A stretch of 64,000 nt of DNA. It comes from Fusobacteriaceae bacterium (GTDB taxonomy: Bacteria > Fusobacteriota > Fusobacteriia > Fusobacteriales > Fusobacteriaceae). The stretch is taken from contig JBOFOQ010000013.1 of the NCBI GenBank assembly GCA_051659505.1, forward strand, positions 4,732 to 68,731, in the 5' to 3' direction. The notes under the pieces are model-generated. The model was not told where the DNA came from. It ran no database searches and worked only from the letters and a program-made list of their open reading frames with translations. A program made the position numbers and the translations under genes. Position 1 is the first letter of the stretch, and each line of letters begins with the position of its first letter. Shown one piece after another: positions 21,007 to 34,349 of this stretch.

Positions 21007-21078
21007 GTTAACCTCCTAAATAAATATTTTAATTAAGTTGTTTTTAGGATATAAATTAAAATAAATATCATCAACACT

Positions 21079-21107: not shown

Positions 21108-21115
21108 ATTTTTTT

Positions 21116-21307
21116 TTATATTATTTTTATTCCTGTTATTTTATCAATAAGCATTATTTGATTTCCACTAAAAGTTATATTATTGTTCTTCAAATTATTA
21201 ATATGCTTATAGTAGTTTTGCTTACTACAACCTAAAGATTCGTATATAGTTTTTTGTTTTATTTTTTTTAATTTCAGTTTTTGCTTGTAACTTTGATACA
21301 AAGTCAT
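21116..21307 (-). CDS. Small XRE/Cro-like HTH protein
   Basis: I place the start at ATG 21307 (RBS GAGAGGTGA), giving 63 aa. KTIYESLGCSKQNYYKHINNLKN is HTH-like. Confidence 0.55.
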   Translation of the reverse strand: MTLYQSYKQKLKLKKIKQKTIYESLGCSKQNYYKHINNLKNNNITFSGNQIMLIDKITGIKII

Positions 21308-21479
21308 AAAATCACCTCTCATTTTTATTCTACAATTAAGTGGAAACAATGTCAAGTTAAAATTAACTTTACTTTTTATTCTATGCCTTATGTAATGTTT
21401 CATTAAAATCTAATATTATTTATAAATTTTATGTGCTATACTTGTTATGATTTAAATAAATTTATAGGAGTAAATAAAA

Positions 21480-22457: not shown

Positions 22458-22458
22458 T

Positions 22459-22503
22459 AAAAAATGCACATTGAACCTATAAAATAGGTAATGTGCATTT
22501 TTT
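22459..22503. terminator. Bidirectional hairpin terminator between the moron and the repressor gene
   Basis: aaaaatgcacatt..acctat-aaa-ataggt..aatgtgcattttt. A long interrupted stem is flanked by an A-run and a T-run. Confidence 0.6.
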
Positions 22504-22532
22504 ATTAATATAGACTAAATTAATACCAAAGT

Positions 22533-23321: not shown

Positions 23322-23358
23322 AATCGATTTTCTCCTTTTGATAATTATTATAATTAAT

Positions 23359-23389
23359 ATTATATAACTTTTTCTACAAAAAGGTAAAC
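23359..23389 (-). promoter_or_regulatory. Possible repressor-maintenance promoter overlapped by an imperfect operator
   Basis: The minus strand reads TTTACC-N18-TATAAT (the TATAAT is at 23364-23359). The imperfect site TTCTAC-AAAAAG-GTAAAC (23372-23389) overlaps the -35/spacer. Confidence 0.3.
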
Positions 23390-23395
23390 TAAGGC

Positions 23396-23424
23396 TTGAC
23401 TTTATTTCTACAAAATAGTAGAAT
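23396..23424 (+). promoter_or_regulatory. Rightward early promoter with an 18-bp palindromic operator (PR-like)
   Basis: TTGACT-TTAT-TTCTAC-AAAATA-GTAGAA-T. It has a perfect TTCTAC-N6-GTAGAA palindrome at 23406-23423, a 17-nt spacer and a TAGAAT -10 inside the right half-site. Confidence 0.5.
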
Positions 23425-23472
23425 ATAGAAAACAACCACAAAAAAGTAGAAAAAAACAGGAGTGAGATGTAA

Positions 23473-23724
23473 ATGACTAAAAAAGAAAAACAGGATATCT
23501 TAGAACATGTAGAAAGAAACGAAGGTATAAAGCTAGTAGTTATTCCTAGCAAAAGAAGAACACACTTTGATATTGATACATCTAAGCTTAGCAAAAATGA
23601 ATTTAGGAATTTAGATAGACTTAGCAACAAATATAAAAAATTCTCTATATCCCAAAATGGATACAAGAAATATGCAATACAAAAATATAACGGTAAACTA
23701 AATAATATCGAGTTATTATTTTAA
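23473..23724 (+). CDS. Early phage protein, unknown function (first gene of the rightward operon)
   Basis: 83-aa basic ORF with an AGGAG RBS, directly downstream of the PR-like promoter. Confidence 0.55.
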   Translation: MTKKEKQDILEHVERNEGIKLVVIPSKRRTHFDIDTSKLSKNEFRNLDRLSNKYKKFSISQNGYKKYAIQKYNGKLNNIELLF

Positions 23725-23744
23725 AAAAATTGAGGAGGAATATT

Positions 23745-23873
23745 ATGCATGTAAAATTAATCAACGGTAAATTTTTTACTAGATTAAAAACTAAAGGTTT
23801 AGTATTTGAATTTTGGACGGATACCAGAGATGGAGCGTTCGAAAGAGCAAGCGAAATAATTGGAACAGATTAA
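23745..23873 (+). CDS. Small early phage protein (42 aa)
   Basis: Not in the ORF track because it is under 60 aa. GAGGAGGA RBS lies 6 nt before the ATG. Sequence: MHVKLINGKFFTRLKTKGLVFEFWTDTRDGAFERASEIIGTD. Confidence 0.45.
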   Translation: MHVKLINGKFFTRLKTKGLVFEFWTDTRDGAFERASEIIGTD

Positions 23874-23887
23874 AAGGAGAATATAAC

Positions 23888-24145
23888 ATGAAAATCAAAT
23901 CAAATGAATTACTAAGGATTTTTGAATCAATCAGTAATGGGGCAACCATTTTTGGATATGTGGAAGCACAAGAAATAAGAAAAGCGACTATAGCGCATCC
24001 AGGATGTATCAGAATATTGGGAATAGAAGAACTTGAAGAAATGGAGTGTGAAATTTATGATAACGGTAGATTAGCTTATTTTGGAGCTATATTAACAGAA
24101 CAAGGTAACATCTTGTTAGATACACTTACAGCAACTGAAAATTAA
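23888..24145 (+). CDS. Early phage protein, unknown function
   Basis: I place the start at ATG 23888 (RBS AAAGGAGAA), giving 85 aa. The ORF-track start at 23813 would overlap the previous gene. Confidence 0.55.
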   Translation: MKIKSNELLRIFESISNGATIFGYVEAQEIRKATIAHPGCIRILGIEELEEMECEIYDNGRLAYFGAILTEQGNILLDTLTATEN

Positions 24146-24179
24146 AAATTGAAATTAATTAATTAAAAGGAGTGAGGTA

Positions 24180-24377
24180 ATGAACGATAAAATGAAAGAA
24201 TATATAAAATCATTGATTGAGGAAGTTGACTCGGCAGGGATGAGCGAAAATGTATCAAAAGAATTAGATAATTATAATTGGAAAGATTATTTATATGAAC
24301 TTGCTGATAAAGAAGATGGTGATTTTTGGATATTGATAGATGATATCAATATGATTATTAGTGGAGAATCAGAATAA
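24180..24377 (+). CDS. Small strongly acidic early protein
   Basis: 65 aa with an AAGGAG RBS. By my count it has 18 Asp/Glu against 6 Lys and no Arg. Confidence 0.6.
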   Translation: MNDKMKEYIKSLIEEVDSAGMSENVSKELDNYNWKDYLYELADKEDGDFWILIDDINMIISGESE

Positions 24378-24392
24378 AGAGGAGTGATTAAA

Positions 24393-24587
24393 ATGTGGAA
24401 ATGCGACGTGTGTTTTGAATCTAATTTTATAGAGGAGCCGACAGGGTCGGGTCATAGAAAAGTAACGTATGACGACATTGGTCTTGAGGATGAAATCATA
24501 GATGATCAGATAGAGTATAGAGTCTGCTGCGAGAACTGCGGAGAATCAGGTAGCACGGTGGTTAATATAGCTACTTGGGTAAAATAA
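24393..24587 (+). CDS. Zinc-ribbon mini-protein (CxxC...CxxC), paralog of 25341-25523
   Basis: I place the start at ATG 24393 (RBS AGAGGAG). Sequence: MWKCDVC...CCENCGE...IATWVK. Confidence 0.6.
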   Translation: MWKCDVCFESNFIEEPTGSGHRKVTYDDIGLEDEIIDDQIEYRVCCENCGESGSTVVNIATWVK

Positions 24588-24634
24588 GACACTTAACATG
24601 TGAATTGTGGCTGACATTATCTAGGAGGAGAGTT

Positions 24635-24988
24635 ATGAAAAACTATATATTAGGACAAGAAGTTTATCACAAAAAGCATGGCTTAGGCTTTATTTGTATA
24701 AAAATAGAGCTTGAAGATACCTTAATAATTGACTTTGCCAAAGAAGAAGGGCTTACAGAAATAAAAGATAAATCTTCACTAAGAATTATAAACATTAGTG
24801 GAGATAGTAGATTAAAGAAACTGGAAGAAGCTTTAATTATAAACAACAACTTGATAAATGAAACTACTCATTCAAAAAAAACAAATTTAAAAATTAGTGT
24901 TCTATACTTTAAACAAGCAAATATTTATAAAAGAATAAATTATTATAATAGAAAAAATCAATTTTTGAATAGACATTGGGAGGTTTAA
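24635..24988 (+). CDS. Early phage protein, unknown function
   Basis: I place the start at ATG 24635 (RBS TAGGAGGAG), giving 117 aa. Confidence 0.55.
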   Translation: MKNYILGQEVYHKKHGLGFICIKIELEDTLIIDFAKEEGLTEIKDKSSLRIINISGDSRLKKLEEALIINNNLINETTHSKKTNLKISVLYFKQANIYKRINYYNRKNQFLNRHWEV

Positions 24989-25171
24989 ATGAAAGATTTT
25001 AGAGACACCTTAATTTCCGAGGTTAATTTTTTAGAAATTAACAAAGATATTGAAGCTAACATAGGAGATAACTGGGAACAGATGCTACAAGATGAGAGTA
25101 AAAAAAATAGCGAACATTTTTGGAGATATGTTGTTATTATTGCACAGCTAATTGCACATCATAAATCATAA
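24989..25171 (+). CDS. Early phage protein, unknown function
   Basis: 60 aa with a GGGAGG RBS. The start abuts the previous stop. Confidence 0.5.
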   Translation: MKDFRDTLISEVNFLEINKDIEANIGDNWEQMLQDESKKNSEHFWRYVVIIAQLIAHHKS

Positions 25172-25217
25172 TTAATACCCAAAAACAATTTTTTTTTTAA
25201 TTAACTAGGAGGTACAA

Positions 25218-25322
25218 GTGGAAATAAAAATTGAAATTTATAAAGGTTTAGAAGCAACCAAACCTTTTAAAACCTTTATATATTTAATTGATAAAAAAAT
25301 TATTTTGGTGAATAAAAAATAA
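25218..25322 (+). CDS. Possible 34-aa early peptide
   Basis: GTG start 6 nt after TAGGAGGT. It is short and unsupported otherwise. Confidence 0.3.
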   Translation: MEIKIEIYKGLEATKPFKTFIYLIDKKIILVNKK

Positions 25323-25340
25323 AAAAAAAGGGAGATTAAA

Positions 25341-25523
25341 ATGTGGATATGTACTAAGTGTGGAGCTAAAGGTAGTATAGTATATGAAGGTATTGAGTAT
25401 ATTTTAGATAAAGATTTAAAGGTAATTGTAACAGACCACGACGGATATTATTGTGAGCAGTGTGATAACTATTCTGACGAAATTACTGAAATAGCTTTTT
25501 GGAAAGAAATTGAAGGAGATTGA
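25341..25523 (+). CDS. Zinc-ribbon mini-protein (CxxC...CxxC), paralog of 24393-24587
   Basis: 60 aa with a GGGAGA RBS. Sequence: MWICTKCGA...YCEQCDN...IAFWKE. Confidence 0.6.
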   Translation: MWICTKCGAKGSIVYEGIEYILDKDLKVIVTDHDGYYCEQCDNYSDEITEIAFWKEIEGD

Positions 25524-25535
25524 GATTTAGGAAAA

Positions 25536-25754
25536 ATGACTAGGGAAAATTCATTTAAAATAGATAAACTAGACGACTGTTTAAAAATAAATTCAAAGAT
25601 TATAAAGCTTATTTCAAAAGAATGTATAAAGTTTTCATTAAAAGGGGATGACATTATGCAAAACATTTTAAAAAACAAAATAAAAGATATAGAGAATGAA
25701 AATAAATTAATCGTAAAAGAGATGAACTCAATTCATATTCATAATTTAAAATAA
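25536..25754 (+). CDS. Early phage protein, unknown function
   Basis: 72-aa ORF in the same-strand array, with a weak RBS. Confidence 0.45.
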   Translation: MTRENSFKIDKLDDCLKINSKIIKLISKECIKFSLKGDDIMQNILKNKIKDIENENKLIVKEMNSIHIHNLK

Positions 25755-25767
25755 AAGGAGGTTTAAA

Positions 25768-26172
25768 ATGAGAGAAGATTTATTTGAAGTAGGAGATGAG
25801 GTATGGTTTTCCGGATTAGGTTGGGGTATAGTTGTTGAGATAGATGATGACGAAATTTCTTCTTTAGGAGTTCAATTTAAGGGGTTGAATTCACTAACTT
25901 CTTTTTATATGGATGGTAGACGTCGCAGTTTCGGACCTAGAGCGCTATTTTTTGAAGAAATCCCAATCCCCGAAAGTGCATTGGTAAGAAAACAGTGGAG
26001 AGCAGAAAAGGGCGAAGGATACATGTTTGTAAGCAGTGCTGGACACATAATAAGGGCAAAAGAACTAGGGAAAAGTTTAGATAATCATAGGCACGAACTA
26101 GGAAACTATTTCAAAACAGAATACAAAACTATAAATAGCAAATTTTACAAAGTATTTCATGAGGAGGTTTAA
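25768..26172 (+). CDS. Early phage protein, unknown function
   Basis: 134 aa with an AAGGAGG RBS. Confidence 0.6.
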   Translation: MREDLFEVGDEVWFSGLGWGIVVEIDDDEISSLGVQFKGLNSLTSFYMDGRRRSFGPRALFFEEIPIPESALVRKQWRAEKGEGYMFVSSAGHIIRAKELGKSLDNHRHELGNYFKTEYKTINSKFYKVFHEEV

Positions 26173-26173
26173 A

Positions 26174-26419
26174 ATGTTTGATGTTAATAAATTAGATTTG
26201 TATAAAGTAGTTTTAGATGATGGATTGTGTATAAGTTATGATTTATCAAAATATGAATTACTTGCATTTTACAAAGAAAGCGATAAATACAAATTAGTGT
26301 GTTTTACTAAAGTGTATTTGTTTGATAGTGAAGAGGCAATAGTTACAGAAGAAAAAGACTGGAAAACTTTCAAACAAAAAGTAGTTGATTTTTTTTCTAA
26401 ACTTGGAGGTGCAAAATGA
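26174..26419 (+). CDS. Early phage protein, unknown function
   Basis: I place the start at ATG 26174 (RBS GAGGAGG), giving 81 aa. Confidence 0.55.
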   Translation: MFDVNKLDLYKVVLDDGLCISYDLSKYELLAFYKESDKYKLVCFTKVYLFDSEEAIVTEEKDWKTFKQKVVDFFSKLGGAK

Positions 26420-26703
26420 GATTAACAATAAATCTGGAAAGAGAAATAGTTGAGTTTGCTAGAAAAAAAGATGATTATTCTGATTGTTCAGAAAGTTGTA
26501 AGCAAAGCTATACTCACGACGGAGGAAGGTTTTGTAGTGCGTTCAGTACTCATGCTCATAATCATGAATCACTAGATATTTGTGATGAAAATCACGTGAT
26601 GATAGAGAAAATATTAAAAAACATGACCAAAGAAGAACTAAAAGAAATTAAAAACAACAATTATGAAAAATTAAAAAAAATATTGAATAAAGAGCAGAAC
26701 TAA
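26416..26703 (+). CDS. Cys/His-rich early phage protein
   Basis: 95 aa with a GGAGGT RBS and an ATGA overlap with the previous gene. Contains CSESC...HDGGRFC...HAHNHESLDIC. Confidence 0.55.
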   Translation: MRLTINLEREIVEFARKKDDYSDCSESCKQSYTHDGGRFCSAFSTHAHNHESLDICDENHVMIEKILKNMTKEELKEIKNNNYEKLKKILNKEQN

Positions 26704-26724
26704 AAAATAAAAGGAGTTTAATAT

Positions 26725-26928
26725 ATGATTATGAAAATAATATTTACTTTGTTTACTATAATAGAAGGAATCCGCGTTTACAAGATGAAGTCTAAATACA
26801 GTTTAACTGAAAGTAAAAAAAATATGTTTTTTATACATGGTAATAGCTTTATCACTATATTTAAGAAAATAAAAATGTGTAGTAGAGAATTAAGGGGGGA
26901 GAATTATTTTTCTGTGAAGTTGGTTTAG
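26725..26928 (+). CDS. Small protein with a hydrophobic N-terminus
   Basis: 67 aa with an AAGGAG RBS. Its 3' end overlaps a convergent minus-strand small ORF. Confidence 0.4.
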   Translation: MIMKIIFTLFTIIEGIRVYKMKSKYSLTESKKNMFFIHGNSFITIFKKIKMCSRELRGENYFSVKLV

Positions 26929-27016
26929 GTGTTGGTGGTTTTGAATTATTATTCATACCATTTTGTATATCACTTATTGGGGCTACACTTTGATAACTGT
27001 TATTATCATTACTCAT
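26861..27016 (-). CDS. Possible 51-aa Pro-rich peptide with a hydrophobic tail
   Basis: Not in the ORF track. The unusually GC-rich RBS AAAGGGGTGGTGA lies 5 nt before the ATG at 27016. Sequence: MSNDNNSYQSVAPISDIQNGMNNNSKPPTPKPTSQKNNSPPLILYYTFLFS. Confidence 0.3.
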   Translation of the reverse strand: MSNDNNSYQSVAPISDIQNGMNNNSKPPTPKPTSQKNNSPPLILYYTFLFS

Positions 27017-27067
27017 AGAATCACCACCCCTTTAATTTTCTACTACACTTAATAATATTATAACCTA

Positions 27068-27096
27068 TTGAAAAAATATTAGTAAAATTTTATAAG
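27068..27096 (+). promoter_or_regulatory. Possible promoter of the ParA-integrase module
   Basis: TTGAAA-N17-TATAAG, 22 nt upstream of the parA-like start. Confidence 0.25.
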
Positions 27097-27117
27097 TTTG
27101 TAATTATGGAGGAATAT

Positions 27118-27816
27118 ATGAATAAAACAATATTAATAAAAAATAATAAAGGTGGTGTTGGCAAGAGTTGGATAACATTGCAAATAGCACATGGCTTATC
27201 CTTAATAACAGATAAAAAAGTATTAATACTAACTTCTGACTCTCAAAACAATATTTTAAATTATAGCGGTATCTCTTGTGATTATAATAAAGGATTAGAA
27301 GATTGGTTGGAACTAGGTGTAGGAGAGAAAATAAACATCAGAGAAAGCTTACAATTCATCCCACTAACTTGTGATTTTATAAAAAAAATACATCAAGAGA
27401 AATTTGATAACTTCATTCAAAAATTAAAAAATGAATATGAATACATATTAATTGACTCGAGCCCAGTATTAACATTAGATAAATGTTTTATGGATATAGC
27501 AGATGAAATAATCATACCTACATTCCTGGACAATGTAACAACTCATTCAATTTTCAATATGTTAGAAAAAATTGATAAAAATAAAATTGCTGCTATTATC
27601 CCAAATAAATTTTCTAGAACTAAAATAGAGAAACTGTTTTATACAGAACTTTCTAATACTTTTAAAAATACTAACATATTGCTTACAGTCCCAGTTGCAC
27701 AGAGTGCCTTTATTGGTGCTTTAATAGATAGAGGGAAAACAATATGGGAAACTAGAAACAAAGCTTTAAAAGATACCACACAGGTATTTATAGATATAGT
27801 AGAAATATTAATATAG
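27118..27816 (+). CDS. ParA/Soj-family partition ATPase
   Basis: Has the deviant Walker A KNNKGGVGKSW, TSDSQNN, and a Walker B-like ILIDSSP. I place the start at ATG 27118 (GGAGGA RBS). Confidence 0.8.
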   Translation: MNKTILIKNNKGGVGKSWITLQIAHGLSLITDKKVLILTSDSQNNILNYSGISCDYNKGLEDWLELGVGEKINIRESLQFIPLTCDFIKKIHQEKFDNFIQKLKNEYEYILIDSSPVLTLDKCFMDIADEIIIPTFLDNVTTHSIFNMLEKIDKNKIAAIIPNKFSRTKIEKLFYTELSNTFKNTNILLTVPVAQSAFIGALIDRGKTIWETRNKALKDTTQVFIDIVEILI

Positions 27817-27825
27817 GAGAACAAC

Positions 27826-28521
27826 ATGGCAATAAACAAAGAAGCAATCAATAAACTAAAAAATAGTTTAATAGTTACTAAATATCAATCAACTTTTGAT
27901 TTCGCAACTTTCGAAATTGAAAAAGAAGTAGCATTAGTTATAACAGAAAATGAAAGTGTTATTGCTACTTCATTAAACCGAATTAGAAAAGCAACTCTTG
28001 ATGTTTGTACATCTTTATATAACACTTCAGTTATCCTAAAACCACATGGATGTTTTATGGAGTGGTATGAACAATTTTATACAAAAGATGAAGTTTCTAT
28101 TCTTATGAGAAGATACGAGCTTTATCTTAACTATCCTGACTTTAAAGAATACATTTTTTCTTTATCGGATGCAGCAATAAAAGAAATTAAAAGAATAACA
28201 GATGAAACTATAATTCTTGAAATTATGAATTTAAAATTAAGAAAGCTGGAAGATATTAGGAAATATCTAATAGTTGAAATTCCAATAAGTGAAAAAGAAA
28301 ATGAAGTAGTAATAAAAATAGAAAGCAATTTTTCCTACAAAATAAGAGATATTAAAGAAGATTTTAAAACTGAACTTGAAACAGTTGAAGATACTACTGT
28401 TTTAAAAAAAGATTTAAATTCTTTGAAAAAAATTATAAAAGAATTAGAGGAATTTTTAGAGGAAAAAGAATTGAAAAACACCAATAAAAATAATTTAAAA
28501 CTGGAGGGGCTAAATGAGTAA
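27826..28521 (+). CDS. ParA-associated protein (possible centromere-binding partner), unknown family
   Basis: 231 aa, 9 nt after the parA stop, with a coiled-coil C-terminus. Confidence 0.5.
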   Translation: MAINKEAINKLKNSLIVTKYQSTFDFATFEIEKEVALVITENESVIATSLNRIRKATLDVCTSLYNTSVILKPHGCFMEWYEQFYTKDEVSILMRRYELYLNYPDFKEYIFSLSDAAIKEIKRITDETIILEIMNLKLRKLEDIRKYLIVEIPISEKENEVVIKIESNFSYKIRDIKEDFKTELETVEDTTVLKKDLNSLKKIIKELEEFLEEKELKNTNKNNLKLEGLNE

Positions 28522-28690
28522 TAGTTGGCAAAATAAATATTTGTTGGATCATGAGTTTATAGATTATCTTCATGATTGTAAAATAAGATATTGTTATACA
28601 TCCCATGAATTCAGAAATAAAAATTCTGAAATAATAGGAAGTATTGATATTGATAATTATTATAAAACTTTTGAAGTTGTTAAAATTTAA
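28514..28690 (+). CDS. Small phage protein (58 aa)
   Basis: Not in the ORF track. The ATG overlaps the previous stop region, and a GGAGGGG RBS is present. Confidence 0.45.
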   Translation: MSNSWQNKYLLDHEFIDYLHDCKIRYCYTSHEFRNKNSEIIGSIDIDNYYKTFEVVKI

Positions 28691-28718
28691 TATAATTTAT
28701 AAAAAAGGAGATGATAAA

Positions 28719-28835
28719 ATGACAGGAACTGTAATATTAAAAAATGATACTAATGAAAAGAATTTAATTGCTATTGTTGCTAGAATAAAAAAACTAGCTT
28801 TAGCTAAAATTGAAGTGAAAAAAGATGAAAAATAA
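28719..28835 (+). CDS. Small phage protein (38 aa), possible recombination directionality factor by position only
   Basis: AAGGAG RBS. It overlaps the integrase start by 11 nt. Confidence 0.4.
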   Translation: MTGTVILKNDTNEKNLIAIVARIKKLALAKIEVKKDEK

Positions 28836-30174
28836 GGTTGCAATTTATGCGAGAGAGAGTACAGATAAACAAGACCTTGATAAACTTGTTGATATGTGTG
28901 TAATTGAAGCTCATAAGCTAGGCTATGATAACTATGAATTATATAAAGATGTTGGTTCTGGAACTTCTAATACAAGAAAAATGTATCTTGAATTAATAAA
29001 AGATATAAAATCTAACAAAGTAAAAATTTTAATCTTGTATGAAAGTTCAAGGATAACAAGAGATACGCTGGAACATCAAATATTTTTTAGGATTTTACAA
29101 GAATATGGTGTTAAACTTTATATTCTGAATAGAGGTTGGGTTGATCCTGATGATGAAAATGATGAATTCACTTCTGCTCTTTTTAACTTATTAGATGCTA
29201 AAGAAGTAAAGAGGTTGAGAGCTCGTGTTAAAGATGCTATGGCTCATATAAAAAACAGTGGGCGTTGGACTGGTGGCGACCCTCCTCTTGGCTATTCTCT
29301 TATAAATAAGAAGTTACATGTTAATGATGATGCCATTATTGTTAAAGAAATATTTGAATTGTTTTTAACTGGAGAGAATAGAAGCAAAATAGCAAAAACA
29401 TTCAATCTTAATTTAAAAAAAGTTGTTAGAATTCTTAAGAACCCAATCTACATCGGAAAACTTAAAAAAAATGAAATAACTACCGTAAATAGAAAACCAA
29501 TTTATAATAAAATATATGAAGTTGTAGATGGAATTCATGAACCAATAATTTCAGAAACAGATTTTAGAAATGTCCAAAATATATTAAAAACTATTATAAG
29601 AGAAACTACTTCTGTTGAGTGCTGCTTCAAAGACATATTAAAGTGTTATTGTGGTGAAAAGCTTTATCCTAAAAAACCTGATATTTATCATAAAAAATTT
29701 TATTATTACTGTAATTGTGGTTCAAAAATAATAAAAGAAGATGAACTTTTAGAATCAGTTTTAATAACTTTAAAAGATGTGATATTATCTCTAGACTTAA
29801 TCCAAGCAAATACTGATATATCTGATTTTAATAATCAAACTAGTTTTTATAAAAGAGAATTAAGTAAAATTCCAGGAAAAGAAGAAAAACTCATAACAAA
29901 ATTAATCGATGGCTCTATATCTGATTTCCTATATGAAAAACAACTAATTAGATTAAATGAATTAAAAGAAGAATATAAAGATAAATTAAATAAGCTTGAA
30001 AATATTAGACAAAGTGAATTAAGTAGAGAAAATACTGTTGATTTATTGAAAAATTATTTTCATAAAATTTCTGAAGAAAAAAATCCAAAAGAATTAAATA
30101 TTTTTTTCAAATTAATTATAGATAAAATTGAGTTTATTAACTCACATAGGTTTCAGCTACATTTAAAAATATGA
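28825..30174 (+). CDS. Large serine recombinase (phage integrase)
   Basis: VAIYARESTDKQD carries the catalytic serine motif within a resolvase-type N-domain. This is followed by a recombinase domain, a Cys cluster (CCFKDILKCYCG...YYCNCG) and a coiled-coil C-terminus. Confidence 0.85.
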   Translation: MKNKVAIYARESTDKQDLDKLVDMCVIEAHKLGYDNYELYKDVGSGTSNTRKMYLELIKDIKSNKVKILILYESSRITRDTLEHQIFFRILQEYGVKLYILNRGWVDPDDENDEFTSALFNLLDAKEVKRLRARVKDAMAHIKNSGRWTGGDPPLGYSLINKKLHVNDDAIIVKEIFELFLTGENRSKIAKTFNLNLKKVVRILKNPIYIGKLKKNEITTVNRKPIYNKIYEVVDGIHEPIISETDFRNVQNILKTIIRETTSVECCFKDILKCYCGEKLYPKKPDIYHKKFYYYCNCGSKIIKEDELLESVLITLKDVILSLDLIQANTDISDFNNQTSFYKRELSKIPGKEEKLITKLIDGSISDFLYEKQLIRLNELKEEYKDKLNKLENIRQSELSRENTVDLLKNYFHKISEEKNPKELNIFFKLIIDKIEFINSHRFQLHLKI

Positions 30175-30210
30175 TTAAAGAATAATAAATATTCCTTAAT
30201 CATATTTTTT
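30165..30210. terminator. Bidirectional hairpin between the integrase and the S8 protease gene
   Basis: A 14-bp stem, aaaaatatgattaa / ttaatcatattttt, with an 18-nt loop, flanked by A and T runs. Confidence 0.55.
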
Positions 30211-30217
30211 TATACAG

Positions 30218-32482
30218 CTACACTCTTATTTTTATATTAGATTTTAGTTTTATTTCTCTTTGTATAAAATTATATTCATTTAATTTTGATACTACATCAT
30301 CGTATACCTCTATATTTTTTTCTGGGTCAGAAATAGTTATAATTATACATATTTCTTGACTAATAGATTTTCTTTGTGATTCATATAGCATCTCTAAATT
30401 CTTACGATAACTTCCTTCCAAAGAAAGAAACCATTTTTTAGGTGCTTTTAAATAATATTCTTTATTCGTATCTGTAAGCATTTCTAAATCTAATGAATAT
30501 TTTTTTATTGGGCAATATTTATTCCCGTATCGAACCAATAATCTTTCTTTTGCAATAAAATCATTTTTACCTTTAAAATTTTTTACATTTTTCGAATAAA
30601 TACTATCTAATAATAAATTTTTATTCCCTTCCTTTCCAATTGGATTTAGTATAAATGGCTTACTTGTGTCTCTTGACACTTTTTCATCATAAGTTCCTAG
30701 CTTTACTTCTAAATTAGATTGACAATATTCTCCACCTTCTGTTCCTTCTAGTAAAGAAGACGCTCCTACAGTAACTTTTATTCTCCCTCTATAAAATCCA
30801 TCATCTGTAATTAATTTTTCTGGAAATGGAAATTCTAATATGTCAACTTCCTCACTCTTGTTCAATGTTTGTCTTAATATTAAAGTTATTTCATTCTTTG
30901 TATTATAGCAAATCTGCTCTATAGTATCGGGAATACCAAATCCATATTGATTCAGTTTTTCAGATTGGGACAAATCATTTTCTGAATATTTAGCTGAATG
31001 AATCAACAAAGTTTTTATCAACAAAGGATCAAAAGATTCGTTTAACTCTGTTGCTAGTGTAGAAGCTAATGATGCTACTCTCGGAGTAGAAAAACTAGTC
31101 CCACTTGACGTTACTATTTCCCCATTCTCTGAAAATGATTTTACATTTTCGCCTACATGTACTAATTCCGGCTTTACAATGTAGCAAGGACCTTTTCCTA
31201 TTCTACTAAATTTAGAGATTTTTTTATTTATATCGCAGCTTCCAATAGTCAAAGCTCTAATTGAGTCAGCACCATTAGTAATTCTAGATACTGGTATATT
31301 TTTCTTGAAATTATCACAATTACCTGCAGACTTAATTATTAGTATATTATATTCATCTTGAAGCTCATCTAAGGCCATGGCAAAATCAGAAAATTTATCT
31401 ATGTCCGATTCAACCGAACTTCCTATTGATAGTGTCCAAATATTAACCTCTGGATATCTCTCTATATTCTCTCTAATATTATCAATTATTTCAGTTTCAT
31501 AGATCATTTGTTTTTTTATATTTGGAATAATTGCTGCATCTATAATTCTACATCTATTAGCACCAGTTAAACTTTCTCCTTCTAATTTATCTCCACAACA
31601 TACTATTCCCGCTACAAAAGTTCCATGAGCTCTACACATATCTTCGTCTATATAATTTGTATTTCTATCTTTAATGAAATTTTTTAATGGAAAGTTCTTT
31701 GAAATTCCAGAATCTAAAACTCCAACTAAAGGATATTCTTTCTCTTCTAATATTTTTTCATCATCAAATAATATACCACCACTATGCCCTAAAAAATTTC
31801 CTGTTACAACTGGCATTGGCTCTAAAGATAGCACCATACTATTATCTTTAACTATATTAGATACTATTTTGGCATTCCCTTTTATTTCATATATATTAAG
31901 CCCTTTATTATAATTGCACTTTTTATATTCAATTTTTTCTTTATCAAATAACTTTTCAAAATAATTACTTAAAACTGTATTTTCTTTATTATCTTTAAAT
32001 TTTACTAGCTTAAGTTTTAAAATTTCTTCATTTCCTTCGTTTATATCACTTTTTAGAATCTGAATTTTCTCTATTGCAGAAATTCCTTTATCATAACGAG
32101 TAAAATCTTTTATTTTGTTTAATATTTCTTCTGATTCTAACTTTGAAATTTTAAATAATAATTTGTCATCCCCTTTTACTCCAATAATATTATTAACATT
32201 ATCACAAAATATTTTATTTATAGCCTCTCTATGACTTTTTGCAATGGAGTCTTTTATTATTTTTACCTCCATTATGGAAGAACCACATCCTAACAAAGAT
32301 TTATCTCTTATTTGTTTACTTTTAAATGAAAATAAGTCTTTAGTTAATATTTCAGCTTGTTTTTCTAATCTCTCCCCTGATAAAATCCATGATACCGGCT
32401 TATTTCCTCCTCCTCCTTCTACTCTTCTCTCATCTACTTGATTCCTTCTCTCGAATATTCTTATTGGTAATTTTCTTTCCAT
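30218..32482 (-). CDS. Cytoplasmic subtilisin-family (S8) serine protease with large N- and C-terminal extensions; IetS-like
   Basis: 754 aa with catalytic Asp VGVLDSGIS, His AHGTFVAGIV and Ser SSGTSFSTPRVA. No signal peptide. Its ATG lies 2 nt after the stop of the ATPase gene. Confidence 0.8.
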   Translation of the reverse strand: MERKLPIRIFERRNQVDERRVEGGGGNKPVSWILSGERLEKQAEILTKDLFSFKSKQIRDKSLLGCGSSIMEVKIIKDSIAKSHREAINKIFCDNVNNIIGVKGDDKLLFKISKLESEEILNKIKDFTRYDKGISAIEKIQILKSDINEGNEEILKLKLVKFKDNKENTVLSNYFEKLFDKEKIEYKKCNYNKGLNIYEIKGNAKIVSNIVKDNSMVLSLEPMPVVTGNFLGHSGGILFDDEKILEEKEYPLVGVLDSGISKNFPLKNFIKDRNTNYIDEDMCRAHGTFVAGIVCCGDKLEGESLTGANRCRIIDAAIIPNIKKQMIYETEIIDNIRENIERYPEVNIWTLSIGSSVESDIDKFSDFAMALDELQDEYNILIIKSAGNCDNFKKNIPVSRITNGADSIRALTIGSCDINKKISKFSRIGKGPCYIVKPELVHVGENVKSFSENGEIVTSSGTSFSTPRVASLASTLATELNESFDPLLIKTLLIHSAKYSENDLSQSEKLNQYGFGIPDTIEQICYNTKNEITLILRQTLNKSEEVDILEFPFPEKLITDDGFYRGRIKVTVGASSLLEGTEGGEYCQSNLEVKLGTYDEKVSRDTSKPFILNPIGKEGNKNLLLDSIYSKNVKNFKGKNDFIAKERLLVRYGNKYCPIKKYSLDLEMLTDTNKEYYLKAPKKWFLSLEGSYRKNLEMLYESQRKSISQEICIIITISDPEKNIEVYDDVVSKLNEYNFIQREIKLKSNIKIRV

Positions 32483-32484
32483 CT

Positions 32485-33585
32485 TTAATCATCCCCTTTT
32501 AACAAATTATTAACTTGTCTTGCAGACATTGAATAATAATTAATTATATCTTTTTTAGTCACTCCATTTTCATATAAAAATATATATTTATTCATCTCTG
32601 ATTTTTTCGTTATGTAAATTTGTTCTAACATTTCAATTCTTCCTATTTTATTTTTTTGATTAATAATAGCTTTCTTCAATATATTTTGTACAATAATTTT
32701 TATTTCTGCTGCCGATATTCCCACAAATAATTTTACAATATTATTTAAATTTTTATCATCTACATCTAATTTTATTTTAAGTTCCTTAATTAAGCTATTA
32801 ATCAATTTTAAAATATTTTCTTTCTCAGGATACTCTATTTCTATTTTTGAAGAAAATCTTCTCCAAATAGCTGGGTCCAGTAATTTTTCATGATTAGTTG
32901 CTGCAATCAAAATATTATTTCCTTCTGTAAAATTATCTATATTTTGTAAAAGTGTATTTACCACTCTTTTCAATTCTCCAACCTCATGAGAGTCATCTCT
33001 TGATTTAGCTATAGCATCAAACTCATCTAAAAATAAAACACAAGGTCTAGCTTTTGCATAATCAAAAATTTTTCTAATATTTTTAGAAGTATTTCCTAAC
33101 AAAGAAGAAACTAATCCATCTAATCTTGCAACAACTAAAGGCAACTCTAATTCATTTGCTATATAATGTGCCAATGATGTTTTTCCTGTTCCTGGAGGTC
33201 CGTATAACAAAAGAGAAGAAGGTAGTTCTAATCCATGACTAATTAATAAAGATTTGTTTTGTAGTAACTTTATATAATCATCTACCTCTTCTTCTACTCT
33301 ATGTGATAAGTACAAATCAGACTTTTGAGGTTTTAAGTATACATCTACCATTTCTAGTTTACTATCTTCATCTTTTGGTTTTAAAACAAATTCATCAAAC
33401 TGCACCGTATTAATAAAGTACTTCTGCTCTAAAATATTTAATATTCTTTCAGAATATTTTAATTCTCCTTCTTTAATTAATTTTGCAGAAAGTAATTCAG
33501 CATATTTTTTTACTTTTTCAGAATTTTTTTCTAATCCTGCTTCTATTATCTTCAACATTTCCGTTCTAAGTTTCATTTTTTTCAC
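32485..33585 (-). CDS. AAA+ ATPase (classic clade); IetA-like
   Basis: 366 aa with Walker A LLYGPPGTGKTS, Walker B VLFLDEFDAI, sensor-1 IAATNH and the Arg-finger region DPAIWRRF. Confidence 0.85.
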   Translation of the reverse strand: MKKMKLRTEMLKIIEAGLEKNSEKVKKYAELLSAKLIKEGELKYSERILNILEQKYFINTVQFDEFVLKPKDEDSKLEMVDVYLKPQKSDLYLSHRVEEEVDDYIKLLQNKSLLISHGLELPSSLLLYGPPGTGKTSLAHYIANELELPLVVARLDGLVSSLLGNTSKNIRKIFDYAKARPCVLFLDEFDAIAKSRDDSHEVGELKRVVNTLLQNIDNFTEGNNILIAATNHEKLLDPAIWRRFSSKIEIEYPEKENILKLINSLIKELKIKLDVDDKNLNNIVKLFVGISAAEIKIIVQNILKKAIINQKNKIGRIEMLEQIYITKKSEMNKYIFLYENGVTKKDIINYYSMSARQVNNLLKGDD

Positions 33586-33626
33586 CCTTTTTCATTTTAA
33601 TTAATTATATCACACTTTATAATTTA

Positions 33627-33694
33627 AACAACGTTTTTTTTAAATAAAATACATATAAAACACTTTTAAAAACGTTTTTTTGAAATAAAATACA
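33627..33694. repeat. Two ~25-nt direct repeats in the region upstream of the ATPase gene
   Basis: aacgttttttttaaataaaatacat and aacgtttttttgaaataaaatacat, with starts about 41 nt apart. Confidence 0.7.
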
Positions 33695-33830
33695 TTTTTT
33701 CGTTTAAAATATCATTTTAGCCCCACAATAAAAAATAGGAATAAATAGAATATTACTTCTCTTTACTCCTGTTTTTTTTGTATAGCTTCTTCTACTTTCT
33801 TGTTCTCACTATACTGCTCTAAAGAATTTT

Positions 33831-34349
33831 TTAATTTATTTTTCTCAAGTATTCTGCTAATATCCCATCAAAAGCTAAATGCCATTTTTCTTTATATTTT
33901 TCATAAAGCACTGGCTCTTCTATTTTATAATCTTCTTTAAATTTTTCAAGCTTATCTTTTTCACCATAAAGTTCTATATGCCTTTTATGTTTTTCCAATA
34001 TCAAGTTATAAGTATCAAGGCTGCATTCTATATGTAAAACATCTAATAATTTATCTAAATTTTCTTCTTTCACTATTTTTGAATTATAGTTAAATCCTTT
34101 TACTAAAAAGTTATAAAAATTGGAAGTTAAATAACTTGTAGGAGAATAACCTTTAACCAAAATATTAAAAAGAGTTTTTAGTTCTTTATATTCTTTATAT
34201 CGTAAACCATAATCTTTTATAAAATCTTCATAAGTATAATTTACAACAGCATTATCATATTTTTTTAATATTTTATTTAAAGTATATCTTACTCCTTCCT
34301 TTGGTTCATATTGTTCATCAATTTTTTTTATCTTTTCATGAATTATCAT
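33831..34349 (-). CDS. Hypothetical protein
   Basis: 172 aa with a strong RBS (AAAGGAGGGG). It lies 63 nt downstream of the O-methyltransferase gene on the same strand. No motif recognised. Confidence 0.65.
   Translation of the reverse strand: MIIHEKIKKIDEQYEPKEGVRYTLNKILKKYDNAVVNYTYEDFIKDYGLRYKEYKELKTLFNILVKGYSPTSYLTSNFYNFLVKGFNYNSKIVKEENLDKLLDVLHIECSLDTYNLILEKHKRHIELYGEKDKLEKFKEDYKIEEPVLYEKYKEKWHLAFDGILAEYLRKIN

What the first reader, a model, noticed from the sequence alone, without database searches (positions are those of the whole stretch)
30218..33585. AAA+ ATPase + cytoplasmic S8 subtilase operon at the prophage/chromosome junction (IetAS-like candidate defence pair)
Seen in the sequence:
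- 32485-33585(-) encodes a 366-aa classic AAA+ module. It has Walker A GPPGTGKTS, Walker B VLFLDEFDAI, sensor-1 IAATNH, the Arg-finger region DPAIWRRF, and a ~110-aa N-terminal extension.
- Its TAA stop is followed 2 nt later by the ATG of 30218-32482(-), a 754-aa protein. The central third of that protein carries a complete S8 triad (VGVLDSGIS / AHGTFVAGIV / SSGTSFSTPRVA).
- The protease has no signal peptide or TM segment, so it should act in the cytoplasm.
- About 250 aa on each side of the catalytic domain match nothing I can recognise.

Established: an ATPase + S8 peptidase gene pair was reported as the anti-phage system IetAS (Gao et al. 2020). Its trigger, protease substrate and mechanism were left unresolved.

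Inference: this is an Iet-type, or a related ATPase-licensed protease, immunity module. It sits convergent to the serine integrase, the classic cargo slot next to a prophage att site. It is the best candidate in this window for a poorly understood system.
Basis: partly seen in the sequence, partly recalled or inferred. Interest (0 to 1): 0.75.

Follow-up and report, generated by a model that had tools for sequence, protein, structure and literature searches.

The report
Known IetAS defence pair in prophage
The two genes are a divergent but complete copy of the already described IetA/IetS ATPase-protease anti-phage (toxin-antitoxin) system, carried as a swappable cargo cassette beside the integrase of a prophage in a Fusobacteriaceae genome; this is ordinary for the family, whose mechanism is still unsolved.

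Summary
Window 32485-33576(-) encodes a 363-aa classical AAA+ ATPase; the true start is ATG 33576, not GTG 33585. Two nucleotides downstream, 30218-32482(-) encodes a 754-aa cytoplasmic S8 subtilase. All catalytic motifs are intact.

Both proteins match the PADLOC IetA and IetS profiles over their full length (E = 1e-126 and 9e-254). It is a divergent member: the nearest homologues are 45-53% identical, and both proteins score below NCBIfam's equivalog cut-offs.

Comparison with four related Fusobacteriaceae assemblies shows that the 3.6-kb cassette (about 30212-33830) is an exact insertion. It sits between the stop codon of a conserved 172-aa gene and a shared bidirectional terminator at the 3' end of the prophage serine-recombinase gene. 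In relatives the same slot is empty or holds other cargo.

Additional findings about the family:
- IetS models as a pro-subtilase-like protein, with a propeptide-like N-terminal region, a catalytic domain and a C-terminal beta-jelly-roll.
- IetA has a conserved C-terminal helix-turn-helix and no aromatic residue in pore loop 1.
- The ietA promoter carries two 31-nt repeats.

Published work makes the likely function toxin-antitoxin-type abortive infection. Interest is low to moderate.

The parts
32485..33576 (-). ietA: 363-aa classical-clade AAA+ ATPase. It has an N-terminal three-helix bundle, an AAA+ module and a conserved C-terminal helix-turn-helix.
   Evidence: - PADLOC IetA PDLC02196: E = 1.4e-126, full length.
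- NCBIfam IteA: 367.8 bits, below the 510-bit cut-off.
- Pfam AAA.
- phrog_3757, full length.
- Alignment A2.
- AF2 model, pLDDT 86.
- Foldseek best matches: FtsH, Rpt/PAN and p97.
30218..32482 (-). ietS: 754-aa cytoplasmic S8 subtilase, the putative toxin/effector. It has a propeptide-like N-terminal region (about 65-225), a catalytic domain (about 250-520; D257, H286, N388, S463) and a C-terminal beta-sandwich/jelly-roll (about 530-754).
   Evidence: - PADLOC IetS PDLC02201: E = 8.9e-254, residues 1-754 against profile 2-779 of 781.
- NCBIfam IteS: 317 bits, below the 900-bit cut-off.
- phrog_3964, full length.
- Catalytic residues invariant in alignment A1.
- AF2 model: pLDDT 86, pTM 0.88.
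- Foldseek best matches: ProN-Tk-SP 3afg, PCSK9 and pro-subtilisin E 3whi.
33604..33695 (-). Putative ietA promoter and operator. There is an extended -10 element, TGTGATATAAT, at 33614-33604. Two 31-32-nt direct repeats lie at 33695-33665 and 33654-33623 (period 41 nt). Each contains the palindrome AAAA(A)CGTT(T/G)TT, and the proximal copy overlaps the -35 region.
   Evidence: - Repeat family D20.
- The 25-nt repeat core occurs only at these two places in the window, against 0.01 expected by chance.
- Sequence reading.
- Function as promoter or operator is inferred, not shown. The simple promoter scan did not single this site out.
30161..30211 (.). Bidirectional terminator-like hairpin with a 20-bp stem. 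It is shared by the convergent ietS and serine-recombinase genes and overlaps the recombinase stop codon at 30172-30174. It forms the conserved right-hand edge of the cargo slot.
   Evidence: - Folds at -20.2 kcal/mol on the minus-strand transcript and -14.9 on the plus-strand transcript.
- The same sequence follows the slot in L016 and L020.
30212..33830 (-). The IetAS cargo cassette as an insertion/deletion unit of about 3.6 kb. It is absent from L016-L019 and L029, where the ORF172 stop codon is joined directly to the hairpin. In L020 it is replaced by a 2.2-kb three-gene cassette.
   Evidence: blastn breakpoints fall at window 33834/30215 against L016 and at 33828/30211 against L020. Junction sequences were read directly.
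33831..34349 (-). ORF172: a conserved 172-aa gene of unknown function that forms the left-hand edge of the slot. It is present in relatives whether or not IetAS is there, so it is not a component of the system.
   Evidence: - Only seven homologues in 5.8 billion proteins, and no family hits.
- It always lies between the O-methyltransferase/rsmB genes and a serine-recombinase element.
28825..30174 (+). Large serine recombinase (the prophage integrase), convergent with ietS.
   Evidence: - Pfam Resolvase plus Recombinase.
- NCBIfam XisF/CcrA-like, below cut-off.
- 77-93% nucleotide identity to the recombinase genes of L016 and L020.
1..28824 (.). Body of the prophage; its left end lies outside the window. 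Genes recognised:
- tape-measure protein, 2614-5574(-)
- major head protein, 10188-11201(-)
- portal, 12599-14137(-)
- large terminase, 14351-16114(-)
- replisome organiser, 18804-19709(-)
- CI/S24-type repressor, 22533-23666(-)
- ParA, 27106-27816(+)
   Evidence: PHROGs hits, Pfam and NCBIfam.

Best explanation
The pair is a genuine but divergent member of the known IetAS (Gao_Iet) family. This is a two-gene module in which an AAA+ ATPase (IetA) is co-transcribed with, and translationally coupled to, a cytoplasmic subtilase (IetS).

Here the pair is accessory cargo of a temperate tailed prophage in a Fusobacteriaceae chromosome. It occupies a variable slot between a conserved 172-aa gene and the terminator of the prophage's serine-recombinase gene.

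From experiments on other family members, the most likely function is as follows. IetS is a latent toxin and IetA is the ATP-dependent antitoxin that keeps it inactive. A protein of a superinfecting phage breaks this restraint. IetS then cleaves cellular or phage proteins, the cell stops growing or dies before the phage completes its cycle (abortive infection), and the lysogen population is protected.

The following mechanistic details are inferred here and not shown:
- IetS resembles an unprocessed pro-subtilase whose propeptide-like N-terminal domain could hold the active site shut.
- IetA's FtsH/PAN/p97-like motor, which lacks an aromatic pore-loop residue, would act on IetS as a remodeller or clamp rather than as a processive unfoldase.
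- IetA's conserved C-terminal helix-turn-helix probably autoregulates the operon through the two palindrome-containing repeats that overlap the ietA promoter.
For: Family membership:
- Full-length PADLOC matches to IetA (E = 1.4e-126) and IetS (E = 8.9e-254).
- Full-length NCBIfam IteA alignment and near-full-length IteS alignment.
- Full-length matches to phrog_3757 and phrog_3964.
- All ATPase and protease catalytic residues are intact and invariant in the family.
- Gene order and spacing (AAA first, then S8, gap of 3 nt or less) are the same in Leptotrichia, Anaeromicrobium and Bacillus loci.

Cargo status:
- Exact indel breakpoints relative to L016 (slot empty) and L020 (a different cassette).
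- L021 carries a Schlafen-type ATPase gene at the same place.
- The nearest homologues are only 45-53% identical and come from Bacillota, which implies horizontal acquisition.
- The prophage itself is confirmed.

Function by homology:
- IetS is the toxin and IetA the antitoxin, and protease activity is needed for defence (PMC13069673).
- A Mycoplasma AAA/S8 pair was validated as a toxin-antitoxin system (PMC8562856).
- A B. cereus IetAS acts by abortive infection and is triggered by the SPbeta protein YosG (10.1101/2022.08.27.505566).
- ietAS has been noted in E. coli prophages (10.1101/2022.08.21.504612).

Architecture:
- AF2 models have pLDDT 86.
- Foldseek hits to pro-forms cover the propeptide. 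Pro-subtilisin E 3whi keeps a target TM-score of 0.70 over 355 residues.
- The HTH columns are conserved, and a homologue's C-terminal tail passes the Pfam Sigma70_r4_2 and HTH_28 cut-offs.
- The promoter repeats are unique to that spot in the window.
Against: - No experiment exists for this pair or for its host.
- Both proteins score below NCBIfam's equivalog cut-offs (367.8 against 510 bits; 317 against 900 bits).
- IetS scores about 230 bits less than typical members of its own PADLOC subfamily (842 against about 1080).
- The B. cereus m1293 IetA, which was tested experimentally, maps to a different IetA subfamily profile (PDLC04232). No member of this exact subfamily is known to me to have been tested.
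- The propeptide resemblance is structural only. hhalign of the IetS family against pro-subtilisin E aligns only the catalytic domain, and Pfam finds no I9 domain.
- The window's own 35-residue IetA tail gave no Pfam HTH hit.
- The att site and the left end of the prophage were not found, so 'inside the prophage' as opposed to 'abutting it' is not proven.
Confidence: 0.8

Rival explanations
1. The pair works mainly as an addiction (post-segregational killing) module that stabilises the prophage or element. Cells that lose or excise the element lose the labile or continuously needed IetA and are killed by IetS. Any anti-phage effect would be secondary.
For: - IetAS was first described as a stability and incompatibility toxin-antitoxin system of plasmid pTiC58 (Yamamoto et al. 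2009, as cited in PMC13069673 and PMC8562856).
- Mycoplasma homologues behave as a toxin-antitoxin system.
- The element also carries a ParA-type partition gene and a partner gene directly upstream of the recombinase. This is a typical maintenance set.
Against: - The element is integrated next to rsmB/ffh in several independent assemblies, where segregational loss is less of an issue.
- Related prophages do without the cassette or carry defence-type cargo in the same slot: a Schlafen-type ATPase in the slot, and a restriction-modification system nearby.
- Anti-phage activity of IetAS has been shown in three laboratories.
- The two roles are not mutually exclusive.
Confidence: 0.13
2. The pair is an ordinary chromosomal housekeeping chaperone-protease pair of this lineage, unrelated to mobile elements or conflict.
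For: The AAA+ module resembles those of FtsH, PAN and p97, which serve proteolysis.
Against: - It is absent from the closest relatives at the same locus.
- The nearest homologues are 45-53% identical and lie in other phyla.
- It matches the defence-family profiles over the full length.
- It occurs in varied mobile contexts elsewhere.
Confidence: 0.02
3. The cassette is a decaying or inactive remnant. Its divergence from the family, and the shorter IetS (754 aa against about 780-795), would reflect loss of function.
For: - The IetS PADLOC score is lower than for typical members (842 against about 1080 bits).
- IetS is 25-40 residues shorter than its homologues.
- Both proteins fall below the NCBIfam cut-offs.
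Against: - Both ORFs are intact and still translationally coupled.
- Every residue that is invariant in the family and was checked is present: triad, oxyanion Asn, Walker A and B, sensor-1 and the arginines.
- The AF2 models are confident over all domains.
Confidence: 0.05

Closest known systems
IetAS / Gao_Iet anti-phage system (Gao et al. 2020; PADLOC IetA PDLC02196 and IetS PDLC02201 subfamily)
   Same: - Two co-oriented genes, with the AAA+ ATPase first and the S8 protease second, coupled by a 2-nt gap.
- Full-length profile matches for both proteins.
- The same domain layout as homologues in Bacillus, Paenibacillus, Clostridium and Leptotrichia.
- Located in a mobile or prophage context.
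   Different: - Only 45-53% identical to the nearest homologues.
- IetS is 25-40 residues shorter and scores lower than typical members.
- Both proteins are below the NCBIfam equivalog cut-offs.
- The host is a Fusobacteriaceae MAG.
- No functional data exist for this pair.
IetAS of Bacillus cereus m1293 (abortive infection, triggered by SPbeta YosG; bioRxiv 10.1101/2022.08.27.505566)
   Same: The same family and gene order, so presumably the same toxin/antitoxin logic.
   Different: Its IetA N-terminus maps to another PADLOC IetA profile (PDLC04232) and looks unlike the window's N-terminal domain. Only 61 residues of it could be recovered from the supplement, so identity could not be computed.
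IetA/IetS of Agrobacterium plasmid pTiC58 (the founding toxin-antitoxin and plasmid-stability system) and the Mycoplasma mycoides TA132/133 pair (353-aa AAA plus 757-aa S8; PMC8562856)
   Same: An ATPase antitoxin with a subtilase toxin. The protein sizes of the Mycoplasma pair are nearly the same as here.
   Different: The relationship is distant. Ti/Ri-plasmid and Mesomycoplasma hits cover only the protease domain or 57% of IetS, at about 25% identity.
ietHAS (three-gene variant with an SNF2 helicase; PMC13069673)
   Same: It shares the IetA and IetS components.
   Different: No helicase gene is adjacent here. The upstream gene is ORF172, which has no family hits and is present in relatives without IetAS.
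Prophage-borne defence hotspots, i.e. variable cargo between conserved phage genes, as described for P2/P4-like elements. The comparison to P2/P4 rests on my own knowledge, not on a tool result.
   Same: The flanks are conserved (ORF172, and the hairpin plus integrase gene) while the content is interchangeable: IetAS, a DUF4325 three-gene set, a Schlafen-type ATPase, or nothing.
   Different: - A different phage lineage and host phylum.
- Only four slot variants were seen.
- It is not settled whether ORF172 is a phage gene or a chromosomal gene.
Pro-subtilases that keep their propeptide (ProN-Tk-SP 3afg, pro-subtilisin E 3whi, PCSK9)
   Same: The predicted IetS fold superposes on propeptide, catalytic domain and C-terminal beta-domain together.
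   Different: - There is no sequence-level propeptide homology.
- IetS is cytoplasmic.
- It has an extra, highly conserved 30-residue N-terminal segment and a second beta-alpha-beta module.

Membership tests
IetAS (Gao_Iet) | Adjacent, co-oriented gene pair with the AAA+ ATPase upstream of the S8 peptidase | tested here: met
   ietA lies at 32485-33576(-) and ietS at 30218-32482(-). The stop and start codons are 2 nt apart.
IetAS (Gao_Iet) | The ATPase matches an IetA profile over its full length | tested here: met
   PADLOC PDLC02196: E = 1.4e-126, residues 4-364 against profile 1-370 of 374. Three further IetA profiles also match.
IetAS (Gao_Iet) | The protease matches an IetS profile over its full length, including the non-catalytic flanks | tested here: met
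   PADLOC PDLC02201: E = 8.9e-254, residues 1-754 against profile 2-779 of 781.
IetAS (Gao_Iet) | Scores above NCBIfam's equivalog cut-offs for IteA (NF042959) and IteS (NF042956) | tested here: not met
   367.8 bits against a 510-bit cut-off, and 317.4 bits against 900. The alignments are full length or nearly so, so this shows subfamily divergence rather than a different architecture.
IetAS (Gao_Iet) | Intact ATPase motifs (Walker A and B, sensor-1, arginine finger) | tested here: met
   The motifs are located. The corresponding columns are invariant in 58 homologues.
IetAS (Gao_Iet) | Intact S8 catalytic triad and oxyanion Asn | tested here: met
   D257, H286, S463 and N388 are invariant in 59 homologues.
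IetAS (Gao_Iet) | Cytoplasmic protease (no signal peptide or transmembrane segment) | tested here: met
   Hydropathy only: the maximum 19-residue Kyte-Doolittle mean is 0.95 and the N-terminus is hydrophilic. No dedicated signal-peptide predictor was available.
IetAS (Gao_Iet) | IetS is toxic and IetA neutralises it (toxin-antitoxin behaviour) | not testable with these tools
   Known for other members (PMC13069673, PMC8562856).
IetAS (Gao_Iet) | Protection against phage infection | not testable with these tools
   Shown for E. coli and B. cereus systems, but not for this subfamily or host.
ietHAS variant | An SNF2-type helicase gene in the operon | tested here: not met
   The neighbours are ORF172 (no family hits) and the convergent recombinase gene.
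Prophage cargo/defence hotspot | Conserved flanks with different or no content in related elements | tested here: met
   The slot is empty in L016-L019 and L029. L020 holds a three-gene DUF4325 cassette and L021 a Schlafen-type ATPase. The breakpoints are exact.
Prophage cargo/defence hotspot | The slot lies inside the element, between att and int | tested here: inconclusive
   - ORF172 and int are more similar to L016 (82% and 77.5%) than the chromosomal flank is (72-74%).
- L001's contig breaks at the 5' end of ORF172.
- No att site was found, and the left end of the prophage is outside the window.
Subtilase with retained I9-type propeptide | A propeptide-like domain N-terminal to the catalytic domain | tested here: inconclusive
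   Foldseek alignments to pro-forms include the propeptide (3whi target TM-score 0.70 over 355 residues; 3afg aligned over 603 columns). However, Pfam finds no I9 domain and hhalign aligns only the catalytic domain.
Type II-like toxin-antitoxin autoregulation by an HTH antitoxin | A DNA-binding domain in the antitoxin and an operator in its own promoter | tested here: inconclusive
   - The C-terminal HTH-like columns are conserved (G338, Q341, S351, R353, R356) and the model has three helices at residues 330-360.
- A homologue's tail passes the Pfam HTH cut-offs, but the window's own tail does not.
- Two palindrome-bearing repeats overlap the promoter.
- Binding was not tested.

The most novel reading that the evidence does not exclude
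The IetAS family, this pair included, may work as a zymogen-type switch that has not been described. In this reading:
- IetS is a cytoplasmic pro-subtilase held shut by its own retained propeptide-like domain.
- IetA is a DNA-binding AAA+ remodeller, with a conserved C-terminal HTH and a non-aromatic pore loop. It represses its own operon at the paired palindromic repeats and also keeps IetS latent.
- A phage trigger, or loss of IetA from the DNA or from IetS, would release the protease.

Separately, the ORF172/integrase slot of this Fusobacteriaceae prophage lineage may be a hotspot that can be mined. Its other occupants, such as the 339-aa / DUF4325 / 185-aa cassette of L020, could be uncharacterised defence systems.
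Probability: 0.25. Interest if true: 0.5.

Novelty: new member of a known kind. Interest (0 to 1): 0.25.

Why it matters
For this window it settles the annotation. The two genes that NCBI names only 'AAA family ATPase' and 'S8 family peptidase' are an IetAS defence/toxin-antitoxin cassette carried by a prophage. This is an expected kind of lysogenic-conversion cargo.

The wider value is modest. IetAS still has no known mechanism (PMC13069673, 2026). Three features at the family level give concrete, testable hypotheses:
- a pro-subtilase-like fold for IetS;
- a conserved HTH and a non-aromatic pore loop in IetA;
- promoter repeats that could serve as an operator.

The precisely bounded slot, with its alternative cargoes in related prophages, offers a small natural experiment in cassette exchange. 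It also gives a lead to possibly new defence genes in Fusobacteriaceae, a phylum with little experimental phage-defence work.

Tried and rejected
- Exact-sequence look-ups of IetS and of the leftmost window protein found no record, so the parts of the 73.4-kb source contig outside the window could not be read.
- A search for att-type direct repeats within 1-40000 found nothing convincing. This is expected for a serine integrase, and the left prophage end is off-window.
- An IMG/VR scan with the integrase found no relative.
- A metagenome scan with the conserved 3' end of ORF172 returned only a duplicate of L016.
- L002 first seemed to mark an att junction inside ORF172, at window 34111. The break is instead due to an IS30-like remnant in L002, so I rejected that reading.
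- The palindrome AAAAACGTTTTT is not enriched elsewhere in the window. It is therefore not a general operator of the prophage repressor.
- The simple promoter and terminator scan gave counts no different from shuffled sequence and missed both the AT-rich hairpin and the extended -10 element.
- PDB sequence searches found no solved IetA or IetS structure.
- The supplement that holds the B. cereus m1293 system truncates the sequence, so only 61 residues of that IetA could be compared.
- The founding paper (PMC2704731) is not held in the library.
- hhalign against pro-subtilisin E did not extend into the propeptide.

Full report
**1. Observation**

The window has the two minus-strand ORFs exactly where stated. 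The upstream one encodes a classical AAA+ ATPase. Walker A GPPGTGKTS, Walker B VLFLDEFDAI, sensor-1 IAATNH and the DPAIWRRF arginine region are at residues 129-137, 183-192, 227-232 and 237-244 of the 366-aa reading.

The downstream ORF encodes a 754-aa protein with a complete S8 triad. D257, H286 and S463, together with the oxyanion Asn388, are invariant in an alignment of 59 homologues.

The ietA stop codon TAA is followed by AG and then the ietS ATG. The genes are therefore translationally coupled.

Neither protein has a hydrophobic stretch. The maximum 19-residue Kyte-Doolittle mean is 0.95 for IetS and 1.36 for IetA, so a cytoplasmic location is the sensible reading.

Pfam sees only AAA (residues 125-252) and Peptidase_S8 (residues 250-516). 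It finds nothing in the two flanks of IetS, even at E <= 10.

One correction is needed. The ietA start is almost certainly ATG 33576 (363 aa). The GTG at 33585 sits within an RBS-like GGGTG. All homologues start at the corresponding Met, the PADLOC alignment begins at residue 4 of the long reading, and the public record of the identical protein is 363 aa.

**2. What it is**

Both proteins match the defence-system profiles for IetA and IetS over their whole length:
- IetA against PDLC02196: E = 1.4e-126, residues 4-364 against profile 1-370 of 374.
- IetS against PDLC02201: E = 8.9e-254, residues 1-754 against profile 2-779 of 781.

NCBIfam's anti-phage models IteA and IteS are also the best hits, with full-length or near-full-length alignments. 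The scores are 368 and 317 bits, below the strict equivalog cut-offs of 510 and 900. PHROGs holds both as full-length families of unknown function, phrog_3757 and phrog_3964, so this subfamily recurs in phage genomes.

That is the outcome.

It is nonetheless a divergent member. The source is a Fusobacteriaceae MAG (identical proteins P0001 and P0128). The next-best IetS and IetA in 5.8 billion proteins are only 45-46% and 52-53% identical, and most come from Bacillota. Typical members of the same PADLOC subfamily score about 1080 bits against 842 here.

The only experimentally studied Gram-positive system I could partly recover is B. cereus m1293. Its IetA N-terminus maps to another IetA profile, PDLC04232. 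I therefore cannot say that this exact subfamily has been tested.

**3. Surroundings**

Positions 1 to about 30174 are a tailed prophage. It has a tape-measure protein, major head protein, portal, large terminase, replisome organiser, a CI/S24-type repressor, a ParA-type protein and a large serine recombinase at 28825-30174(+).

To the right, from 34413, lie chromosomal core genes:
- an O-methyltransferase;
- rsmB (above the equivalog cut-off);
- an AIR-synthase-family gene;
- rpsP, ylxM and ffh;
- then a tRNA cluster.

Between IetAS and the O-methyltransferase is ORF172 (33831-34349), which has no family hit in any library and only seven homologues.

**4. The pair is a cassette in a variable slot**

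Related assemblies were found through RsmB and through ORF172 homologues. They compare with the window as follows.

| Locus | Identity to the window | Content between the ORF172 stop and the recombinase gene |
|---|---|---|
| L016-L019, L029 | 72-74% in the chromosomal flank | Nothing: the stop codon is followed after 2 nt by the hairpin |
| L020 (same MAG as L001) | 92% in ORF172 and the integrase gene | A 2.2-kb three-gene cassette: 339 aa, a 110-aa DUF4325 STAS-like protein, 185 aa |
| L021 (more distant) | 64% in the O-methyltransferase gene | A Schlafen/AlbA_2 plus HATPase_c_4 gene, followed by a second partial copy of the ORF172 3' end |

- In L016-L019 and L029, the hairpin is a 51-nt sequence that in the window lies at 30161-30211 and overlaps the recombinase stop codon.
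- The blastn breakpoints against L016 are window 33834 and 30215. The 3.6-kb IetAS segment is therefore an exact indel.
- In L020 the cassette has the same borders, at window 33828 and 30211.

The hairpin has a 20-bp stem and folds at -20 kcal/mol. It is flanked by T-runs on both strands, consistent with a bidirectional terminator.

This pattern is what one expects of accessory or defence cargo exchanged between related prophages through conserved flanks. Elsewhere the IetA-then-IetS pair, always with a gap of 3 nt or less, sits in other mobile or island contexts:
- after the lysis genes of an Anaeromicrobium prophage;
- beside an IS200-type transposase gene in Leptotrichia;
- next to spo0A in B. 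spizizenii.

It also occurs, rarely, in deposited phage genomes and on plasmids.

Whether the slot lies inside the prophage could not be settled. Three things point to ORF172 belonging to the element:
- ORF172 and int are more similar to L016 (82% and 77.5%) than the chromosomal flank is (72-74%).
- ORF172 was seen only next to such a recombinase element.
- The 148-kb contig of L001 ends in the first codons of ORF172 and overlaps L020 by 139 nt, matching the k = 139 in the contig name.

Against that, no att site was identified, and the left prophage end is outside the window and could not be fetched.

**5. Anatomy of the proteins**

IetS was modelled with a 59-sequence alignment and gives a confident model (pLDDT 86, pTM 0.88). 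It has these parts:
- A strongly conserved N-terminal segment of about 30 residues (L5, P6, I7, K8, F10, R13, D17, E22, G24, G25, P30).
- A long helix.
- Two beta-alpha-beta-beta-alpha-beta modules (about residues 65-225).
- The catalytic domain.
- A C-terminal beta-rich domain (about residues 530-754) with an invariant E-Y-C-Q-S motif at 585-589.

The best PDB matches are subtilases solved with their propeptide, and some with a C-terminal beta-domain as well. They are ProN-Tk-SP (3afg; 603 aligned columns, E = 2.5e-21), PCSK9, EpiP, KP-43 and unprocessed pro-subtilisin E (3whi). The last keeps a target-normalised TM-score of 0.70 over all 355 residues, much like mature subtilisins over 269-275 residues. 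The propeptide must therefore be superposed too. Weak viral hits to jelly-roll capsid proteins fit a jelly-roll C-domain.

This resemblance is structural only. Pfam finds no I9 domain, and hhalign of the family against pro-subtilisin E aligns only the catalytic domain.

IetA (pLDDT 86) has an N-terminal three-helix bundle, an AAA+ module most like FtsH, proteasomal Rpt/PAN and p97-D2, and three C-terminal helices (residues 330-360).

In 58 homologues, the position of pore-loop 1 reads S-S-L-L-G-x-T-x-K-N. S157, S158, L160 and G161 are invariant and L159 is nearly so, and there is no aromatic residue.

The C-terminal helices carry a conserved pattern, NGVSQxxIxKxLxISxRQVRN, that looks like a helix-turn-helix. 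The tail of one homologue passes Pfam's Sigma70_r4_2 and HTH_28 cut-offs, but the window's own 35-residue tail does not.

Upstream of ietA there is an extended -10 element (TGTGATATAAT, 33614-33604). There are also two 31-32-nt direct repeats 41 nt apart (33695-33665 and 33654-33623). Each contains the palindrome AAAA(A)CGTT(T/G)TT, and the proximal one overlaps the -35 region. The repeat occurs nowhere else in the window.

**6. How it most likely works**

Shown by others for family members:
- IetS is toxic and IetA counteracts it. An inactive ietA cannot be cloned with an active ietS, and protease activity is required for defence (PMC13069673).
- A Mycoplasma AAA/S8 pair of nearly the same sizes is a functional toxin-antitoxin system (PMC8562856).
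- A B. cereus IetAS protects by abortive infection and is set off by the SPbeta protein YosG (10.1101/2022.08.27.505566).
- The mechanism is still called unknown in 2026. I found no later mechanistic paper and no solved structure.

Inferred here: IetS is a latent, pro-enzyme-like protease. IetA uses ATP to keep it latent, more likely by clamping or remodelling than by processive threading, given the non-aromatic pore loop. IetA's HTH binds the promoter repeats and autoregulates the operon, as type II antitoxins do. A protein of a superinfecting phage disturbs IetA or IetS and frees the protease, and the cell dies or arrests. For the prophage this amounts to superinfection immunity of its host. 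The same module could also penalise loss of the element.

**7. Rivals**

- A primary role as an addiction module is plausible, given the pTiC58 precedent and the ParA-type partition gene on the element. It is less likely to be the main role for an integrated element whose relatives lack the cassette or carry defence-type cargo instead. I give it about 0.13, and it does not exclude defence.
- A housekeeping chaperone-protease pair is contradicted by the empty slot in relatives and by the distant, cross-phylum homologues.
- A decayed remnant is unlikely, because every conserved catalytic residue is present and both models are confident.

**8. Verdict**

The finding is a new, divergent member of a known kind of system in a typical place for it.

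The features with some wider interest are hypotheses about the whole IetAS family, not peculiarities of this locus. They are the pro-subtilase-like build of IetS, the conserved HTH and unusual pore loop of IetA, and the candidate operator. The alternative cargo in the same slot of related prophages, especially the L020 cassette, may be more novel than IetAS itself.

Interest: 0.25.

Noticed in passing
L020:631-2820 (relative of the window; the same slot as window 30212-33830): A different three-gene cassette sits between ORF172 and the integrase terminator. It encodes a 339-aa protein (phrog_3364, unknown function), a 110-aa DUF4325 STAS-like protein, and a 185-aa protein with no hits. None of them matches a PADLOC model, so this may be an uncharacterised defence cassette.
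   Followed up: partly
L021:10586-12512: In a more distant relative the slot holds a 492-aa gene with Schlafen/AlbA_2 and HATPase_c_4 domains. It is followed by a second copy, about 100 nt long, of the ORF172 3' end. This looks like a scar of cassette insertion by recombination at the end of ORF172.
   Followed up: partly
L016:7036-9968 (also L017-L019 and L029): A type II restriction-modification unit is inserted between the O-methyltransferase gene and ORF172. It consists of a 599-aa m5C methylase fused to an Eco47II-like endonuclease domain, plus a 314-aa gene. It is flanked by an imperfect 65-89-nt direct repeat of the ORF172 upstream region and its first seven codons. This is a second variable spot on the other side of ORF172.
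   Followed up: partly
L002:6730-7172: In this relative, ORF172 is cut after about 80 codons and joined to the C-terminal remnant of an IS30-like transposase. This imitates an att junction at window 34111 but is not one.
   Followed up: yes
window 21480-22457 (+), within the GC trough at 20001-22000: A 325-aa protein with two N-terminal hydrophobic helices, an internal 42-nt tandem repeat (21644-21727) and no family hit in any library. It lies in an 18.7% GC stretch beside the CI/S24-type repressor gene. That position is typical of prophage superinfection-exclusion genes.
   Followed up: partly
window 27106-28521 (+): A ParA-type ATPase and a 231-aa partner (phrog_32652) lie directly upstream of the serine recombinase. 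This is a partition-like module in a prophage that is integrated next to chromosomal core genes.
   Followed up: no
window 5604-5692 and 3088-3495: A TTTA/TTTATTTA microsatellite of about 90 nt lies just downstream of the start of the tape-measure gene region. There is also a 204-nt tandem duplication (86% identity) inside the tape-measure gene.
   Followed up: no
L027:about 6720-6750 (B. spizizenii ietAS locus): A sequence matching the Bacillus SOS (Cheo) box pattern, CGAACGTTTGTTCG, lies next to TATGATATAAT about 150 nt upstream of ietA. This hints at DNA-damage control of that homologue. The Cheo-box consensus is quoted from memory.
   Followed up: no
L016:14838-17450: A tightly spaced gene pair of 366 aa and 502 aa lies just downstream of the S24 repressor of the related prophage. 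Neither protein has a hit in PADLOC or PHROGs, so this is another possible accessory module.
   Followed up: no
window 33576-33585: The mechanical ORF start (GTG 33585) overstates ietA by three codons. ATG 33576, with GGGTG six nucleotides upstream, fits the homologues and the public annotation.
   Followed up: yes
window 40966-41291 (-): A cluster of four tRNA genes (Met, Ala, Glu, Gly) lies in the chromosomal part of the window. It is not adjacent to the prophage end seen here.
   Followed up: no
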